64,000 bases of DNA, taken from contig NW_027191454.1 of assembly GCF_011745625.1 (NCBI RefSeq), positions 62,001 to 126,000 on the forward strand, in the 5' to 3' direction. Under the pieces are notes generated by a model that was given only the letters and a program-made list of their open reading frames with translations, was not told where the DNA came from and did no database searches. This stretch comes from Cladosporium halotolerans (lineage: Eukaryota). The position numbers were made by a program, and so were the translations under genes. This document shows, piece by piece, positions 25,423 through 52,792 of this stretch (position 1 is the stretch's first letter; the number at the start of each line of letters is the position of its first letter).

Positions 25423-28134
<2,712 letters not shown>

Positions 28135-45068: not shown

Positions 45069-48000
45069 TTACAAAGGCTTGCCGCCAATGAAGTCACTCC
45101 ACCTCCTGACCTCGTTGGGGATGCCGTCAGGCTTAGGCAGCTTCTCGCTCATACACTGAGCGGAGAGGACGGCAGTCTTGGGCTCCATGAAGAGCGGCAC
45201 ACCGAAGTCGACGGCGTTGCGGCGCATAACGTAGTCCTCGTCGACCATGCTGCTGGCGCGACGCTTGGCCAGGTTGAAAGCGCCACGGATGTCGTACTTC
45301 TCGAAGACCTCACGCAGGGCGCGCTTGTCCTGCTTGGGGAACTCGATGACCTCGACGTTGACGGAGCTGTCCTTGCTGGACTGCTCGAGGTGCTCCTTGA
45401 TCTCGCTGTTGGCGGCGTAGAGCTTGTAGCCGAGAGGGTTCAGGTAGTCGACAATCTTGGCAAGGTCGCCAGTAGCGGTGTCACCGCCGAAGAGAAGACC
45501 CTCACCAGGCTGGGGAAGACGGAAGTTCATGGTGCTCTGCATGCCAGCCCAGTAGGCCTCGACGAGGTCCTTGCCGAAGCAAGCCATTTCACCGGTAGAA
45601 GACATCTCGACACCGAGGTAGGGGTCGGCACCAGCGAGACGAGTCCAGGCGAACTGAGGGACCTTGACGGCGAGATAGTCACGGTCGACCTTCATCAGGT
45701 CAACCGGCTCAGGGACGTTGGTATCGGTGATGGCGCGGGTTGCGACGTCGATGAAGTTGGTGCCCAGAACCTTGGAGGAGAAGGGGAAAGAGCGAGAAGC
45801 ACGGAGGTTGCATTCGATGACCTTGAGAAGGCTCTCACCGCCCTCAGGGTTGTCGGCGTTGATGATCTGCATGTTGAAGGGACCGGTGATGTTCCAGGCC
45901 TTAGCGACCTTCTCAGCAATCTCCTTGACACGGTTGACGGTAGCGGCGGGCAGGTTGGCGGGCGGCAGCACAAGGGAGGCATCGCCGGAGTGAACACCAG
46001 CGTTCTCAATGTGCTCACTGACGGCGTGGACAAGCAGCTTGCCGTGAGAAGCAACAGCGTCAACGTCGATTTCACGAGCACCCTCAATGTATTGAGTGAT
46101 AACCACAGGGTGGTCAGGCGAGACGTTGGAGGCGGCCAAAAGCTTGTCCTTGAGCTCCGCCTCAGACCAGATAACGGTCATGGCGGCACCGGACAGGACA
46201 TAGGACGGGCGAACAAGGACGGGGTAGCCAACGCTCTCAGCAAACTTCTTAGCATCCTCGTAAGAAGTAAGCTCCTTCCAGGCGGGCTGGTCAACACCGA
46301 TAGAGTCCAGAATCGAAGAGAACTTGTGCCTGTCCTCAGCCTTGTCGATATCTTGAGGGTCAGTACCGAGAACCTTCGCCTTGCCAGTCTCCTGGAGCTT
46401 AAGAGCGATGTTCTGAGGCAGCTGGCCGCCGACAGAAACGACAACACCAGAGCTGGTCTCCAGCTCGTAGATGTCCATGACACGCTCGTAGCTGAGCTCT
46501 TCGAAGTAGAGGCGATCAGGGAAGTCATGGTCAGTTGAGGTGGTCTCTGGGTTGTAGCTAATTTGGCTGTTAGCATGGTTCTGGATGTATAGAGGTGGTA
46601 GAAATGGATGAGGTGCGAAAGGGGGGTTCTCGGCGGGCCGGGGGCGGTTTCTGAGCTCAAAGCCGACGATACCGCCACAAAACGCGATTTTTTCGAGCGG
46701 GATTGACCAGCCACAAGGGCAGGACATCTCACTGACCGATCGACGTGTTCTGTGACGGGTACCGAAGGTATGAGCTCAGGAAGCGAGAGCCTTCAGACTT
46801 CCCAGCGGCGGCGCGGCGTCGTCTCAGTGACGCACATGCACGCAATCGAACGACGACCGATGGCAGCACGTCCAATTGCAGCACTATATGTGTAAAGAGA
46901 TCAATAATCGCGCGCAGACATCGCAGTGGCCGAAAGGTGGTCTCTCGAACGCATGCCGCTGGTAGTACGTCTGGCTCGGGCATAACGTGGGTGAAGTCTG
47001 AGCCGGGCTGCGCCGAAGAATCCCCGTGCGCAGAACACACGCATTCGCGCGGCTGCTGATGGTAGGACGTCGAGATGCAAAACAACAGAAATAGACTTAC
47101 TTCTGTAATGGATTATTAGCAGATGTTCAAATGAAGATGCAAAAAAGTGAGCGACGGAAGAACTTACAATGACAACGGTCTTCTTGCCAAGCTCCTTCAA
47201 GCTGAGCGTAGCGTTGACAGCGCACCAATCGAACTCGACAGAAGAGCCAATGCGGTAGACACCAGATCCAAGAACGATGATACCGTGATCGTTGAACTCA
47301 ATATCGTGGCTGGAAGCGTTATAGGTCGTGTACAGGTAGTTGGTGTCGGCGGGGAACTCGGCGGCGAGGGTGTCGATCTTCTTGACCCAAGGGCGGATGC
47401 CAAAGTTCTTGCGGCGGGCGCGGACCTCATCTTCGGTGCTGTTGACGGCGTTGGCGATCTGCCTGTCGGAGAAACCGAGCTTCTTGGACTTGAGCATGAG
47501 CTCCTTCTTGACGCCGTAGAGCGAGCCGATGTTCTGGAGTTCGTGGGTGCAGTCGACGATGTTTTGGATCTTGTAGAGGAACCACTTGTCGATCTTGCTC
47601 AAGTCGTGGACCTTGTCGACGGAGTAACCTTCGTGAAGCATGGCCTGGCCAACAGCGAGCCAGCGGCGGTCGGTGGGGTTCCTGAGCACGTCGTCGATGT
47701 CGTCAAAGTGGTCTCCCTGGAGACCGGCGAACTTGGGGTCAACCATGCGAATAGCCTTCTGGAAAGATTCCTCGAAAGTACGACCGATAGCCATAACCTC
47801 ACCGATGGACTTCATAGCGGAACCGATGTGGCGGTCAACGTTCTGGAACTTGCTCAGATCCCAACGCGGCATCTTGGTGACGATGTAATCAAGAGAGGGT
47901 TCGAAGTTGGCGGTAGTCGTGCGGGTGACAGCGTTGGGAAGCTCAGGAAGAGTGTGTCCCAGACCGATCTTTGCAGCGGTATAAGCCAGAGGGTAGCCGG

Positions 48001-49183
48001 TAGCCTTGGAAGCGAGAGCGGAAGAACGAGAGAGACGAGCGTTGACCTCAATGACACGGTAGTCAAGACCATCCGGAGCCAGAGCGTATTGAACGTTGCA
48101 TTCTCCGACAACACCAAGGTGACGAATAATCTTGATAGCGGCAGTCCGGAGCATGTGGTATTCCTCATCGCTGAAGGTCTGAGAAGGCGAAACGACGATA
48201 CTGTCACCAGTGTGAACGCCGAGAGGGTCGAAGTTTTCCATGTTGCAGACAGTGATACAGTTATCAGCGGCGTCGCGGACGACCTCATATTCGGCCTCCT
48301 TCCAGCCCTTGAGAGACTTTTCGACGAGAATTTGCGGGGACAGGGTCAGAGAACGGGCAGACAGGTTGCGAAGCTCCTCGGGGTTCTCAGCAAAACCACT
48401 GCCGAGACCACCGAGAGCGTAAGCAGCGCGGACGATAATCGGGTAACCAACGGAGTCGGCGGCGGCGAGCGCCTCGTCGACTGTGTTGACAGCGATACTC
48501 TCGGCGATCGGAATGTCGATCTCCTTCAGAGCCTGGGCGAACAAGTCACGGTCCTCACTGACCTCGAGAGTCCTGATGCTCGTACCAAGAACCTTGACGC
48601 CGTAGCGATCGAAGATGCCCATCTTGTTCATTTGCACACCCAAGTTGAGGGCAGTCTGGCCACCGAAGGAGAGGAAAATGCCATCGGGGCGCTCCTTCTC
48701 GATCACGTAGGTGACGTATTCGGGGGTGACAGGGAGGTAGTAGACTTCGTCGGCGAGAACGTGTGCGGTTTGAATGGTTGCGATGTTGGGGTTGATGAGG
48801 ACAGACTTGACGCCGGCCTCCTTGAGGGCCTTCAGCGCCTGGGAGCCGGAGTAATCGAACTCGCCGGCCTGTCCAATAGAGAGACCACCAGAGCCAATGA
48901 CGAGGACCTTCTTGACATCAACGAGGTCCTGCGCACCAGAAATGGCACCACTCTCGAGGTATGCTTTCGCATTGGGAGCGGTCTCTGTCTGGCTGGCGCA
49001 GCTCCTGGCCGACCTGGTAAAGGCCCTAATGTTCTTGGGAGCAGCCTTGACCTGCTTCTGCTGCTTAACGCATCGTGGGGCCTGAGAGACGAAGGTACGG
49101 CGGGCAATGCGAGGAGCAGCTTGGCGGGCTTGGTGGAACAACTCCTGCTGCAGCTGGCGAACCAGCTTGCCGCTAAGAGCCAT
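45069..49183 (-). CDS. CPA2: Arginine-specific carbamoyl-phosphate synthetase large subunit (CPA2/arg-3), mitochondrial; exons 49183-47168, 47102-47101 (2-nt micro-exon), 46557-45069; 1168 aa
   Basis: [87 protein letters not shown]; mitochondrial presequence; no GATase/ATCase domains, so not Ura2; the micro-exon restores KTVVINYNPET. Confidence 0.95.
46558..47100 (-). other. Unusually long (543 nt) structured spliceosomal intron in CPA2 with four GAYGTNCTRCC repeats
   Basis: GTAAGT donor at 47100, GCTAAC branch site and TAG acceptor at 46558; long complementary segments and four motif copies (see findings). Confidence 0.85.
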
Positions 49184-49235
49184 GGTTGTTTGTGTTTTTC
49201 AGGTAATTCGGGTGGGTGCAGCGGCAGTGGTCTAG

Positions 49236-49392
49236 TTAATTGACCTGGGCCTTCCACAGGTGGTCGGAGATGTAGTCTACACGCGCATCGAATTAGCCAA
49301 TGCGCCGGCAGCGGGACGAAAGCTCCTGGACCGACCTCGGGAGCGAGCTAGAGCATACCTTGAGAAGTGGTTTTGGTGGGCGCAAAAGTCAT
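49236..49392 (-). CDS. uORF encoding an arginine attenuator peptide (AAP), 24 aa MTFAPTKTTSQDYISDHLWKAQVN; exons 49392-49359 and 49276-49236
   Basis: Removing an 82-nt intron (49277-49358; GTATGC..GCTAAT..TAG) yields the core TSQDYISDHLWKA, matching N. crassa TSQDYLSDHLWRA and yeast TCQDYISDHIWK, with D12 and W19 in register; stop lies 52 nt before the CPA2 ATG. Confidence 0.93.
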
Positions 49393-51145
49393 GAAGCCCA
49401 ATGGGTGCCCTGTCGAGGCCAGTACTGCCGGTATGTGGTGACAAGGTGCAGGACAATGGGTGAGGTGGGTGACTGGTACAAATGCAAAAATCCGAGCGAG
49501 CTATGCGCGGGCCCGAGCGCTCACACCGCCGGCGCTAGCCCATACCGTGCAGCAGGAGTCAGAGCTCCTCCGCCCTCGCCGCCCTCGCGCGCTCTTATCA
49601 GTACCGAGAAAACGCCATTATCGTGCGCCGCGCGCCGTTCAGTATGACTGTGGTTTTCTTTTCCGTCTGCCGCACGCTGCTCCCAGCGTCGCGGGCCTCG
49701 CGGCCCTGATGTCTTAGTTGCAGATCGCTACAAACTCATGGGGGCCCATTGGGGTTCTCTCCGGTACCGGCGCCAGTCCTTTTACGTCTGGTATTGTTGC
49801 AACTGTCTTTCCATCACCTGCTATGATTACACATTCAGAAGACGAGCGCCCGCCAATGGTTGTAACTTCACTTTGAAGGTAGTCATCAAGACCGTGAAGA
49901 TATCTCTTCTTCACTTGACGGCAATCTGCGCCTGAGACGCATGCCACTCGTCGGTGTGTGAAGCGCACGCTGAGGCAGTAGTGTGCAGGAGGCTTCCTAT
50001 CATGTGTGCTTGTGCAGGGTATTGAAGCCCTGTAGCTAAGTAGAGCAGGCTTGATGCCATTGTCGGCACCCGAGGGTCTTCCCTTGAAGCTTCACATTTT
50101 CATACTTTGATGGACGGACAGCAGATTGTCCAAGGGCCACCTCTCGCTGATGCAGGCACCCCTAGTGTCATTGAGGGAAAGACCTCGCGTCATTAAATAA
50201 TAAAGTAACATCCGCCTTCTCAGACGATCCGTGCCGACGCAAGGACTTCTATGATAAGCAGCGGGCGGATTATAGTGATGCATCTTCAAGGACGGTTGGT
50301 ACCTCCCTCGCCGGATCAACGGCGGGGAGGCCAGAATACAGTTGAAGATGTTGAGGTGAGATGATGATGAGACGAAAGAATGTCTCAGGAAGTACTCAGT
50401 CTGCGTATAGAGTCTGCGAATTATTTCACATGTCATGGAGCCATGGTGTTGTATCATGTGTATCGCCGCGCAGTTCTGTTCATAAGGTACCTCCTCACAA
50501 GCGAAAGGGTTGGACCCTAAGGCCAATCCAAGGTGAGGTGCGAATCCTGACGCGCCAAGTCTGCTGTTACGCAAGCTCGAGGCCAGCATGCGATTTGGTT
50601 GTTTATATTCGCTTGTGCAGAACGCGATCATGTCTGCCGAAGAGTAGATGTTCATGAAACTCGCGCGATAGTAATAGCGTTCAAGACGTCTGAGTAAGAA
50701 TACAATTGTAACAAAAACCTCCCGCAATCGTAAACCGTACAGCAATCACGACCTGAGCCAGCCCTGCGCTGAATGAGGGCCGGCGGTAGCTGCAGGGGTC
50801 TCCAGTCTACCGCACCGCACCGTCTCCTGGAGCCATCTTCGCCTCGTACACCTTGCACTTTCACGAACCCAGCAGCAACCCTATCCGCATACCGCGCCCG
50901 CCCGATTAGATGCATCTACGGTAGCCGGTGGCCATCTCCAATTGGGACCCAACAACGTCGCTCCTTTAGCGGTGCAGCCACCGCCCACACCAACGCCGTT
51001 CCTCCAACGCAAGCCAAACCTCGCGCTACCACCGGACCCTCCGCGACACTCCAAGACTGTACAACACACGCAATAGCTGAGCGCTACCCCATTTAATAGG
51101 CGGCCTGGCCGCTGGACACGATACACGGAGCGCAACGCCGCAACC

Positions 51146-52792
51146 ATGGATTACCTCCGAAAACGCATGCCCTCTGCGGAGAACATGCCCACCTTGAAAA
51201 GCCTCCAATACGCCAATCTCAAGGACGCCTCGGAAAAGCTGTCGCCGCGGTTAGGTTTCTTCCGAAGAAGAGTGAGAATACGAGGAAACAGCAAGATCAG
51301 TGTACCCTTGTACCTCGTCCTACTTTTTCCGACCTTGGTCGTCATCCTGATTCTGGTGCTTTTTGTGCGCCATCCGGACAGCCCTGCGGCCCGCTTGATT
51401 CCCAGCGGCGCGCCGCCCAGTATCCGCAAGATTAGCGAGAAGCACGATAAGGTGTTTGTCAGTGGCTGTTTGGAGCCTCAGAGGGAAGCGGAGCACCCCA
51501 GAGAGAATGGCGTATTCGTGGTGCTGGCGAGGAATAAGGAGTTGCCTGGTGTGCTTGACAGTCTGAAGAGTGTCGAACGTCACTTCAACCGGTGGTTCCA
51601 CTACCCTTATGTCTTCCTTAACAATGAGGAATTCAACAGCACTTTCAAAGAGACGGTCATGAACTACACTTCTTCTACTGTCGAGTTTGGCAAGATCGCG
51701 CCGGAACACTGGGGCTTCCCCGACTGGACCGATGCACGAGTCGCTAAAGAGGGCATCGCCAAACAGGGCGACCAGGCGATCATGTACGGTGGCATGGAAT
51801 CCTACCACCACATGTGCCGCTTCTACTCTGGCTTCTTTTACAAGCACGAGCTGCTCCAGAAGTACGACTGGTACTGGCGTGTGGAGCCCGACATCAAGTA
51901 CTTCTGCGACATCACCTACGACCCCTTCGTGCACATGGCCCGCAACAACAAGACCTACGGTTTCACTATCGCGGTCAAGGAGCTGAAGGAAACCGTCCCC
52001 AATATCTTCCGCTACGCATCCGCGTACAAGCGCGTGAACAACCTCACGTCCCAGGGCCTGTGGGAGATGTTCGTGGAGCCCAAGCCTGAGGACGAGAACA
52101 AGCCGGAAGATCTTCCCAAGGGCGACCCAAAATACGACAACGAGAAGCCTCTGCCCGAAGACATTCTCCGCACTGAGCCCGGCTCCGGCACCCTGCCGGA
52201 GATCGACCCAGAAGCCATGGAAGGCGAGAAGTACAACATGTGCCATTTCTGGAGTAACTTCGAGATCGCGCGCCTGGATTTCTTCCGCAGCAAAAAGTAC
52301 GAAGACTTCTTCAACATGATGGACCGCAGCGGTGGCTTCTGGATGGAAAGAGTGAGTCGGATTCCATGAAGAGCACATGAATTAGAAGTATCATGCTAAC
52401 ATCTACAAAAGTGGGGCGACGCACCCATCCACTCCCTCGCGGCCGGCGCCCTCCTCGCGCCCCACGACATCCACTACTTCCGCGACTTCGGCTACCGCCA
52501 CACCACCATCCAGCACTGCCCCGCCAACGCGCCCGCGCGCCAGCTCCCCCGCCAACCCTACCTCGGCACCGACTTCGAGCAAAAGGTCGCGTCCGTGGAC
52601 AAGGAGTTCTCGCAAAAGCTCGAAGAAGACGACGACTACTGGGCGAAGTGGGACACGGAGAAGGAGAACGGCGTCGGCTGCCGCTGCCGCTGCGACACGG
52701 ACATCGTGGACGTCGAGGGCAAGGAGGGCAGCTGCATCCCGGAGTGGGTGGACATCGCGGGCGGGTACGTGACGCCCGAGGGCCCGAGCTAG
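51146..52792 (+). CDS. GT15 alpha-1,2-mannosyltransferase (Kre2/Ktr family, Ktr5/7-like); exons 51146-52351 and 52412-52792
   Basis: Type II TM anchor; VLARNKEL, SYHHMCRFYSGFF, YWRVEP, YNMCHFWSNFEI and ER|WGDAPIHSL. Confidence 0.92.

What the first reader, a model, noticed from the sequence alone, without database searches (positions are those of the whole stretch)
49236..49392. Arginine attenuator peptide uORF in front of the LARGE carbamoyl-phosphate synthetase subunit
Seen in sequence: on the minus strand, ATG 49392 plus 33 further nt, an 82-nt canonical intron splitting codon 12 (G|AC) and 41 nt ending at TAA 49236 encode MTFAPTKTTSQDYISDHLWKAQVN, stopping 52 nt before the CPA2 ATG. The ORF track misses it because it is short and spliced. 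Established: the 24-25 aa AAP stalls ribosomes in high arginine, needs Asp12 (Asp13 in yeast) and Trp19, and is described for the small glutaminase subunit (N. crassa arg-2, S. cerevisiae CPA1). Both key residues and the length are intact here, yet the downstream gene is clearly the large synthetase subunit. Inference: the AAP module was copied or moved to CPA2 in this lineage, giving arginine-dependent translational (and possibly NMD) control of the large subunit. I am not aware of this arrangement being described but cannot check the literature.
Basis: partly seen in the sequence, partly recalled or inferred. Interest (0 to 1): 0.92.

Follow-up and report, generated by a model that had tools for sequence, protein, structure and literature searches.

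The report
Arginine-sensing uORF before CPS large subunit
A tiny spliced upstream reading frame that encodes the fungal arginine attenuator peptide, so far described only for the small subunit of arginine-specific carbamoyl-phosphate synthetase, also sits in front of the large-subunit gene in Cladosporium-like and Friedmanniomyces-like fungi, so both subunits are probably shut down together when arginine is plentiful.

Summary
On the minus strand, ATG 49392 plus 33 nt, an 82-nt GT..CTAAT..AG intron in phase 1 of the Asp codon, and 41 nt ending at TAA 49236 give a 24-codon arginine attenuator peptide (AAP). It ends 52 nt before the ATG of a carbamoyl-phosphate synthetase large-subunit gene (CPA2/arg-3 type).

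It is neither chance nor a one-off. An AAP-motif scan of metagenome contigs gave 78 loci: 45 lie before the small subunit and 16 before the large subunit. All 16 have the same two-exon uORF. In the window's clade the peptide is identical in 9 of 9 leaders and every exon change is synonymous. Exons are 97-99% identical; the intron, spacer and upstream DNA are 73-79% identical.

By protein identity the carriers are Cladosporium (the window is 1167/1168 identical to a C. halotolerans protein) and Friedmanniomyces endolithicus, in two different orders. Both lineages also keep an AAP on the small-subunit gene, so the module was copied, not moved.

No transcript, splicing or arginine-response data could be obtained. 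Ten searches of the open library found no description, but the key 2007 survey was not readable. This scan had noted only the canonical yeast CPA1 uORF before. Verdict: a new variant of a known kind.

The parts
49393..49419 (-). Leader block directly 5' of the uORF AUG, nearly invariant in the 9 leaders of the window's clade. It includes the weak start context GGCTTC-ATG-A, with T at -3.
   Evidence: Alignment; start contexts.
49359..49392 (-). uORF exon 1: ATG plus 33 nt, encoding MTFAPTKTTSQ and the first base (G) of the Asp-12 codon.
   Evidence: The same 34-nt exon is present in 17 of 17 large-subunit-linked leaders.
49277..49358 (-). 82-nt spliceosomal intron inside the uORF, phase 1 in the Asp codon: GTATGC donor, CTAAT at 49296-49292, TAG acceptor.
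   Evidence: Intron length in relatives is 82-130 nt, and intron sequence is only about 75% identical within the clade while the exons are 97-99% identical.
49236..49276 (-). uORF exon 2: AC + YISDHLWKAQVN + TAA stop (49238-49236).
   Evidence: motif match at 49252-49277.
49184..49235 (-). 52-nt spacer between the uORF stop and the main AUG. The main AUG context ACAACC-ATG-G is strong.
   Evidence: The spacer is 50-58 nt in the window's clade and L016, and 101-102 nt in L048, L055 and L077.
47168..49183 (-). CPA2 (arginine-specific CPS large subunit) coding exon 1, residues 1-672.
   Evidence: Pfam; tblastn; 669/669 identical to the Cladosporium halotolerans protein P0273 over this part.
47103..47167 (-). 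CPA2 intron A, 65 nt: GTAAGT..CTAAT..ACAG.
47101..47102 (-). Inferred 2-nt micro-exon AA, needed to restore the conserved Asn codon and the reading frame.
   Evidence: With it the coding sequence is 3507 nt and 1168 aa, 1121/1168 identical to P0001.
46558..47100 (-). CPA2 intron B, 543 nt: GTAAGT..GCTAAC..TTAG. No other copy in the window or the loci.
45069..46557 (-). CPA2 last coding exon, including the stop codon.

Best explanation
The element is a functional arginine attenuator peptide (AAP) uORF in the 5' leader of the mRNA for the large subunit of arginine-specific carbamoyl-phosphate synthetase. After the 82-nt intron is removed, scanning ribosomes meet a 24-codon uORF whose AUG is in a weak context, so some translate it and others scan past to the strong main AUG 52 nt beyond the uORF stop. 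When arginine is high, the nascent AAP (core TSQDYISDHLWKA, with Asp-12) arrests its own ribosome at the uORF stop codon. The stalled ribosome blocks scanning ribosomes, lowers synthesis of the 1168-aa subunit and possibly exposes the mRNA to NMD. The cassette is an old DNA-level duplicate, intron included, of the AAP leader of the small-subunit gene, which keeps its own copy. So in Cladosporium- and Friedmanniomyces-type fungi both subunits are repressed together by arginine. Shown here: the anatomy, family membership of the peptide, linkage to the large subunit, conservation and purifying selection, and presence on both genes in two orders. Inferred: transcription through the uORF, splicing, translation, arginine-dependent stalling and NMD.
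For: Anatomy and gene identity.

Peptide family: a self-built profile of 25 distinct small-subunit-linked AAPs gives 58.6 bits for the window peptide against 3.4 bits for the best of 272 decoys. Pfam PF08252 (Leader_CPA1) scores 45.7 bits (cut-off 18.5) on the unspliced contig L059, whose peptide is identical to the large-subunit-linked peptide of L055 and L077.

Conserved linkage: the motif scan gave 78 metagenome loci. Of these, 14 have the window's CPA2 directly downstream by tblastn, and 2 more (L005, L023) run into the CPA2 start codon. All 17 leaders, window included, have a 34-nt exon 1, a phase-1 GT..AG intron of 82-130 nt and a 41-nt exon 2.

Selection: in the window's clade the peptide is identical in 9 of 9 leaders. 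Mean pairwise identity is 0.993 for exon 1 and 0.972 for exon 2, against 0.749 for the intron, 0.785 for the spacer and 0.725 for the 150 nt upstream. Across 8 distinct uORF sequences, 8 of the 13 core codons (9-21) vary and none changes the residue.

Paralogue comparison: in Friedmanniomyces the small-subunit (L012) and large-subunit (L055) uORFs encode the same peptide with 12 nucleotide differences in 75 nt, including a TCG/AGC serine switch. Their introns and flanks show no clear similarity.

Start contexts: the uAUG has T at -3, while the main AUG has A at -3 and G at +4. Conserved promoter-like blocks lie upstream of the uORF.

[quoted passage not shown] D12N abolishes the response (PMC7038982, passages). 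CPA1 and arg-2 mRNAs are NMD substrates (PMC7049704, passages).
Against: There is no direct evidence that the uORF lies in the CPA2 transcript, that the intron is spliced, or that the peptide is made. None of the 16 large-subunit-linked loci is a spliced cDNA-like contig, whereas 18 of the 38 small-subunit-linked loci with a full peptide carry the uORF without an intron; several of these sit on long genomic contigs, so an unbroken uORF does not by itself show a spliced transcript.

The scan pattern itself fixes codons 12-20, so conservation of those codons among the hits is partly by construction. Only exon 1, codons 9-11 and 21-24, the intron phase and the linkage are independent observations.

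Residues 7-8 (KT) and 22 (Q) of the window peptide differ from the usual small-subunit type (xF and S/N).

In yeast and Neurospora, arginine-specific control of the large subunit is not known (my recollection; the papers were not held).
Confidence: 0.78

Rival explanations
1. The uORF is a conserved, translated uORF that damps CPA2 translation constitutively, or responds to a signal other than arginine. The AAP-like sequence would then be kept for another reason.
For: No arginine response was tested. The N-terminal and C-terminal residues differ from the small-subunit type.
Against: The invariant core is exactly the AAP core kept in all 25 distinct small-subunit-linked peptides. In Friedmanniomyces the two paralogous peptides are identical despite 12 synonymous differences. 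That is hard to explain unless both are held to the same arginine-sensing function. The gene controlled is the partner subunit of the classical target.
Confidence: 0.09
2. The uORF is not part of the CPA2 mRNA because the transcription start lies downstream, and it is a decaying relic of a duplicated small-subunit leader.
For: No transcript data. No spliced cDNA-type contig was found for the large-subunit type.
Against: A relic would not keep an intact ATG, reading frame, splice sites and stop codon in 17 of 17 leaders from two orders, with only synonymous change, while the intron and flanks drift. The 27 nt just 5' of the uAUG are nearly invariant, and conserved promoter-like blocks lie further upstream.
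Confidence: 0.05
3. The peptide is the product of an independent micro-gene that merely neighbours CPA2, or the arrangement is an assembly artefact.
For: None beyond the lack of expression data.
Against: The same head-to-tail arrangement, with a 50-102 nt spacer, occurs on 16 separately assembled contigs from several samples and assemblies. The peptide family is known only as a cis-acting nascent peptide (PMC7969011, passages).
Confidence: 0.02

Closest known systems
Arginine attenuator peptide uORF of Neurospora crassa arg-2 and Saccharomyces cerevisiae CPA1 (Pfam PF08252, Leader_CPA1)
   Same: A 24-codon uORF with the same invariant core (TSQ-D-Y-I/L-S-D-H-L/I-W-K/R) including Asp-12, a weak uAUG context, a short distance to the main AUG, and the same pathway enzyme. 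The yeast-type peptide itself was recovered in loci L034 and L066.
   Different: The regulated gene is the large synthetase subunit (CPA2/arg-3 type), not the glutamine amidotransferase small subunit. Papers I could read name only the small subunit as the target (PMC7969011; PMC7049704).
Small-subunit-linked AAP uORFs of the same fungi: Cladosporium-type loci L013/L017, L022, L039, L056, L057, L070 and Friedmanniomyces-type loci L012, L068
   Same: The same two-exon structure, with a phase-1 intron in the Asp codon. The peptide is identical in Friedmanniomyces (MTFAPTTFTSQDYISDHLWKASVN) and very similar in Cladosporium (MSAPTTFTSQDYISDHLWKASVN against the window peptide).
   Different: Different downstream gene. 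Introns and flanks show no clear similarity, and the codons differ at 12 synonymous positions, so this is an old paralogue and not a recent copy.
Other eukaryotic uORF-encoded arrest peptides, such as hCMV gp48 uORF2 and the Arabidopsis CGS1 nascent peptide
   Same: Nascent-peptide-mediated ribosome stalling that controls a downstream or own ORF (PMC7038982, passages).
   Different: Unrelated sequences and effectors. No membership is claimed.

Membership tests
Arginine attenuator peptide (AAP; Pfam PF08252, Leader_CPA1) | The peptide matches the family profile. | tested here: met
   A profile built here from 25 distinct small-subunit-linked AAPs scores the window's spliced peptide at 58.6 bits (E 4e-18); the best of 272 decoys scores 3.4 bits. 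Pfam PF08252 itself was run only on unspliced contigs: L059 scores 45.7 bits against a cut-off of 18.5, and its peptide is identical to the large-subunit-linked peptide of L055/L077. The window's own spliced peptide was not submitted to Pfam.
Arginine attenuator peptide (AAP; Pfam PF08252, Leader_CPA1) | A uORF of 24-25 codons lying shortly upstream of the main ORF on the same strand. | tested here: met
   24 codons and a 52-nt spacer. That it lies within the mRNA leader is inferred, not shown.
Arginine attenuator peptide (AAP; Pfam PF08252, Leader_CPA1) | The invariant Asp (Asp-12 in N. crassa) and the conserved core are present. | tested here: met
   Asp-12 is encoded across the splice junction (G|AC). 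The core TSQDYISDHLWKA is invariant in 8 of 8 distinct large-subunit-linked uORF sequences. D12N abolishes the arginine response in the N. crassa AAP (PMC7038982, passages).
Arginine attenuator peptide (AAP; Pfam PF08252, Leader_CPA1) | The uORF precedes the small (glutamine amidotransferase) subunit gene of arginine-specific CPS, the context that gives the family its name. | tested here: not met
   The downstream gene carries CPSase_L_D1/D2/D3 and is 1167/1168 identical to a C. halotolerans 'arginine-specific large chain' cluster member. This is a difference in context, not in the peptide.
Arginine attenuator peptide (AAP; Pfam PF08252, Leader_CPA1) | Arginine-dependent ribosome stalling at the uORF stop codon. 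| not testable with these tools
   This needs toeprinting, reporter assays or ribosome profiling.
Arginine-specific carbamoyl-phosphate synthetase large subunit (CPA2 / arg-3 type) | Two CPSase L-chain ATP-grasp halves plus the oligomerisation domain, as a stand-alone protein of about 1170 aa without the ATCase/DHOase parts of CAD. | tested here: met
   Pfam. The gene model gives 1168 aa. The best named homologues are 'arginine-specific large chain, mitochondrial' proteins.

The most novel reading that the evidence does not exclude
The AAP leader is a portable regulatory cassette that was duplicated as genomic DNA, intron included, onto the large-subunit gene in a common ancestor of Cladosporiales and Mycosphaerellales. 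If so, dual arginine-sensing control of both CPS-A subunits would be the rule across this large group, which includes Zymoseptoria, Cercospora, Fulvia and Hortaea. It would be the first natural case of an arrest-peptide sensor recruited to a second gene, and a ready-made system for asking why most fungi regulate only the small subunit.
Probability: 0.4. Interest if true: 0.72.

Novelty: new variant of a known kind. Interest (0 to 1): 0.62.

Why it matters
The AAP is the textbook eukaryotic example of a nascent peptide that senses a metabolite inside the ribosome. Every description I could read ties it to one gene, the small CPS-A subunit. A second, independently maintained target shows that the sensor can be transplanted in nature. 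The paralogous pair has identical peptides, diverged codons and unrelated introns, which gives a clean natural test of which residues are constrained. It also changes the regulatory logic of the pathway: both subunits are titrated, not only the limiting one. The carriers include Cladosporium, one of the commonest moulds, so the prediction can be tested with existing strains, RNA-seq and the established cell-free stalling assay.

Tried and rejected
No whole genome is held for the window, so this genome's own small-subunit gene could not be inspected. I used named-protein identity and metagenome contigs instead.

No RNA evidence was obtained and read laying was not used.

Looking for gene models that fuse the AAP to CPA2 found nothing: 0 of the 120 best CPA2 homologues carry the motif or PF08252.

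Notes of this scan held nothing for this genome and only an unrelated relative stretch.

Papers not held: Hood et al. 2007, PMC7686025, PMC3434499, PMC109333, PMC3003393, PMC4574236 and PMC555268.

The first motif pattern had too few fixed bases. Fixing the second serine as TCN means AAPs that use AGY at that serine were missed.

The careful tree search did not finish, so quick trees with SH-aLRT support were used. The backbone is unresolved, so single and multiple origins cannot be told apart.

The upstream neighbour of the window (mannosyltransferase, 51077-52369) is not within 4 kb upstream in the relatives' loci, so synteny beyond about 450 nt upstream is not shown.

Gcn4/CPC1-like TGACTC cores occur upstream in 9 of the 13 leaders examined, but at varying positions, so I make no claim about them.

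Fourteen of the 78 motif hits have no CPS gene nearby and were set aside as chance or unresolved. Three AAP-like hits (L038, L051, L062) have too little downstream DNA to classify.

Full report
OBSERVATION

Reading the minus strand confirms every coordinate of the finding.
- ATG at 49392 opens a 34-nt exon. One search translates it as MTFAPTKTTSQ, followed by a lone G.
- An 82-nt intron follows (49358-49277). It has donor G|GTATGC, a branch-like CTAAT at 49296-49292 and acceptor TAG.
- A 41-nt exon follows (49276-49236). It supplies AC to complete the Asp codon, then YISDHLWKAQVN and TAA.
- Spliced, this is a 24-codon frame. Unspliced, the frame stops after 14 codons (read).
- The stop lies 52 nt before ATG 49183.

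The ORFs after that ATG carry CPSase_L_D1, CPSase_L_D2 and CPSase_L_D3. [quoted passage not shown] No small-subunit gene was seen among the 29 long ORFs of the window that were scanned.

The AAP core motif occurs once in the window, even with two mismatches allowed, and in none of 100 shuffles.

IS THE PEPTIDE AN AAP?

I did not submit the spliced peptide to outside tools. Inside a script I built a profile from 25 distinct AAPs (from 38 loci) that precede small-subunit genes. The window's spliced peptide scored 58.6 bits (E 4e-18). The best of 272 short ORFs of the window scored 3.4 bits.

Pfam PF08252 (Leader_CPA1) was run on three contigs where the uORF is unspliced. They scored 45.7 to 58.5 bits against a cut-off of 18.5. 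One of them, L059, encodes exactly the peptide found in front of the large subunit in L055 and L077.

IS THE LINKAGE TO THE LARGE SUBUNIT REAL AND CONSERVED?

No genome is held for the window, so I scanned the metagenome contigs for a degenerate AAP core. The first try was rejected for too few fixed bases. The corrected pattern, with the second serine fixed as TCN, gave 78 loci. All 78 were read out.

| Class | Loci | Basis |
|---|---|---|
| Before the large subunit | 16 | 14 have the window's CPA2 directly downstream by tblastn, N-terminal identity 69-96%. L005 and L023 have the identical uORF and run into the CPA2 start before the contig ends. |
| Before the small subunit | 45 | 41 have a downstream ORF with CPSase_sm_chain, most also with GATase. 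This came from a Pfam scan of the largest downstream ORF of 56 loci; 2 of those ORFs hit other families and 13 hit none. Four more (L045, L058, L068, L071) match small-subunit N-termini. |
| AAP-like, unclassified | 3 | L038, L051 and L062 have too little downstream DNA. |
| No CPS gene nearby | 14 | Mostly matches inside long ORFs. |

As a control, the same pattern occurs only 8 times in the prokaryote genome collection. None of those 8 ends within the 13-14 residues from the Asp that the AAPs found here show.

ANATOMY AND SELECTION IN THE LARGE-SUBUNIT-LINKED SET

All 17 leaders (the window plus 16 loci) share one structure:
- a 34-nt exon 1 encoding M-T-[F/S]-A-P-[T/S]-x-x-T-S-Q plus G;
- a GT..AG intron of 82-130 nt in phase 1 of the Asp codon;
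- a 41-nt exon 2.

They collapse to 8 distinct uORF nucleotide sequences and 4 peptides.

In the window's clade there are 9 different leaders (36 pairs). The peptide is identical in all 9. Mean pairwise identity by segment:

| Segment | Mean identity |
|---|---|
| Exon 1 | 0.993 |
| Exon 2 | 0.972 |
| Intron | 0.749 |
| Spacer | 0.785 |
| 150 nt upstream | 0.725 |

Across all 8 sequences, 8 of the 13 core codons (9-21) vary and none changes the amino acid.

One caveat applies. The scan pattern fixes codons 12-20, so their conservation among the hits is partly built in. Independent of the pattern are exon 1, codons 9-11 and 21-24, the intron phase, the splice sites, the stop and the linkage.

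The uAUG context is weak in the window's clade (GGCTTC-ATG-A) and the main AUG context is strong (ACAACC-ATG-G). The spacer is 50-58 nt in the window's clade and L016, and 101-102 nt in L048, L055 and L077.

The 27 nt just upstream of the uAUG are almost invariant. Further conserved blocks lie 70 to 380 nt upstream. This fits a promoter upstream of the uORF but does not prove it.

WHO CARRIES IT, AND DOES THE SMALL SUBUNIT KEEP ITS OWN AAP?

The window's organism:
- The best named CPA2 homologues are Dothideomycetes.
- A cluster look-up found a Cladosporium halotolerans protein (P0273). It is 1167/1168 identical to my model of the window's protein outside one intron region.
- P0001, the protein nearest the window in the tree, shares its cluster with a C. 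fusiforme protein.
- The large-subunit-linked loci L004, L035, L041, L067 and L078 are 94-97% identical to these two Cladosporium proteins.
- In a quick tree they form a starred clade with the window, next to Cryoendolithus antarcticus.

Friedmanniomyces:
- L055 is 664/667 identical and L077 is 311/316 identical to the Friedmanniomyces endolithicus CPA2.
- L048 is their starred sister.
- L016 is too short to place.

Cladosporium belongs to Cladosporiales and Friedmanniomyces to Mycosphaerellales.

The small subunit in the same lineages:
- L012 is 100% identical to the F. endolithicus small chain. Its AAP is the same peptide as that of L055/L077.
- L068, from the same assembly series as L055 and L077, is 98% identical to L012 at the N-terminus.
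- A tight clade of small-subunit-linked loci (L013/L017, L022, L039, L056, L057, L070) is 94-99% identical to the small chains of Cladosporium sp. NU13 and C. inversicolor. It carries the AAP MSAPTTFTSQDYISDHLWKASVN with the same phase-1 intron.

So in both genera each subunit gene has its own AAP uORF. The cassette was copied, not moved.

The copy is old. In Friedmanniomyces the two uORFs differ at 12 of 75 nucleotides. All 12 differences are synonymous, and one is a TCG/AGC serine switch. The introns and flanks show no clear similarity.

Outside these lineages, the scan found genomic small-subunit-linked AAPs of Aureobasidium-like, lichen-fungus-like and Saccharomyces-like origin but no large-subunit-linked ones. 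This hints at a restricted distribution. The numbers are small, and the tree backbone is unresolved.

HOW IT MOST LIKELY WORKS

Papers I could read give the known mechanism:
- The AAP stalls ribosomes at the stop codon of its uORF when arginine is in surplus. This reduces synthesis of the glutamine amidotransferase subunit (PMC7969011, passages).
- Replacing Asp-12 by Asn abolishes the response (PMC7038982, passages).
- CPA1 and arg-2 mRNAs are NMD substrates (PMC7049704, passages).

The window's element has every sequence feature of that device, placed in front of the partner subunit. The most likely function is therefore arginine-dependent translational repression of the large subunit, possibly with mRNA decay, which co-regulates the two subunits. 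That leaky scanning past a weak uAUG feeds the main ORF is my recollection of the Neurospora work, not something I could read here.

Not shown: transcription start, splicing, translation, stalling.

NOVELTY

Ten full-text searches found no paper that places an AAP, or any arginine-sensing uORF, before CPA2, arg-3 or the large subunit. The hits were read as listings. Passages of PMC2373899 and PMC4717488 mention CPA2 only as an enzyme.

The library lacks most subscription papers. The main comparative study of fungal AAPs (Hood et al. 2007) and six other papers were not held. Prior description therefore cannot be excluded; I put it at about one in four.

Earlier notes of this scan cover only the canonical yeast CPA1 uORF.

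I rate this a new variant of a known kind. The device is known and the target gene is new. The arrangement is conserved in two fungal orders that include very common moulds.

SIDE OBSERVATION ON THE GENE MODEL

The CPA2 coding sequence stays in frame only if a 2-nt micro-exon (AA, 47102-47101) is spliced between a 65-nt and a 543-nt canonical intron. That model gives 1168 residues, 1121 of them identical to P0001. Relatives have one phase-0 intron after the same Asn codon. The public C. halotolerans model instead reads through the first intron and carries a 26-residue insertion there.

Noticed in passing
window 46558-47167 (minus strand): The CPA2 coding sequence needs a 2-nt micro-exon (AA, 47102-47101) between two canonical introns of 65 and 543 nt to keep the conserved Asn and the frame. 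Relatives L004 and L035 have a single phase-0 intron after AAC. The 543-nt intron has no other copy in the window or the loci.
   Followed up: partly
protein P0273 (Cladosporium halotolerans, 1194 aa) against window 47103-47167: The public gene model is 1167/1168 identical to the window's protein but reads through intron A and carries a 26-residue insertion where all homologues have one Asn. This is probably a mis-modelled intron.
   Followed up: partly
window 49393-49770 (minus strand): Blocks upstream of the uORF are conserved in the 9 leaders of the window's clade: the 27 nt before the uAUG, CAGTCA (49475-49470), TGATAAGA (GATA-like, 49600-49593), CAGTCATA (49650-49643), GATCTGCAACTAAG (49726-49713) and CCGGTACCGG (49770-49761). 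A TGACTC core lies at 49561-49556, but its position is not conserved.
   Followed up: partly
window 25423-28134 (minus strand): A second arginine-pathway gene of ARG5,6 / arg-6 type (AA_kinase, NAT, semialdehyde dehydrogenase domains) lies about 17 kb from CPA2. No AAP motif lies near it.
   Followed up: no
L012 against L055, uORF exon 1: The paralogous AAPs of Friedmanniomyces encode Ser-10 with TCG on the small-subunit gene and AGC on the large-subunit gene. This is a serine codon-family switch with the peptide unchanged.
   Followed up: no
L055 and L077: Two large-subunit-linked leaders from the same assembly series differ at a few positions and both match F. endolithicus CPA2. They may be two alleles or two duplicated genome copies.
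   Followed up: no
L020, L052, L063: Short frames contain the AAP core and stop 9-13 residues after the Asp, but no CPS gene is detectable nearby. They are either chance matches or AAP-like uORFs of intron-rich or distant eukaryotes.
   Followed up: partly
window 49400-51077 against loci L035, L041 and others: The window's upstream neighbour (glycolipid mannosyltransferase, 51077-52369, plus strand) is not found within 4 kb upstream of the uORF in the related contigs, so the region beyond the promoter is rearranged among relatives.
   Followed up: no
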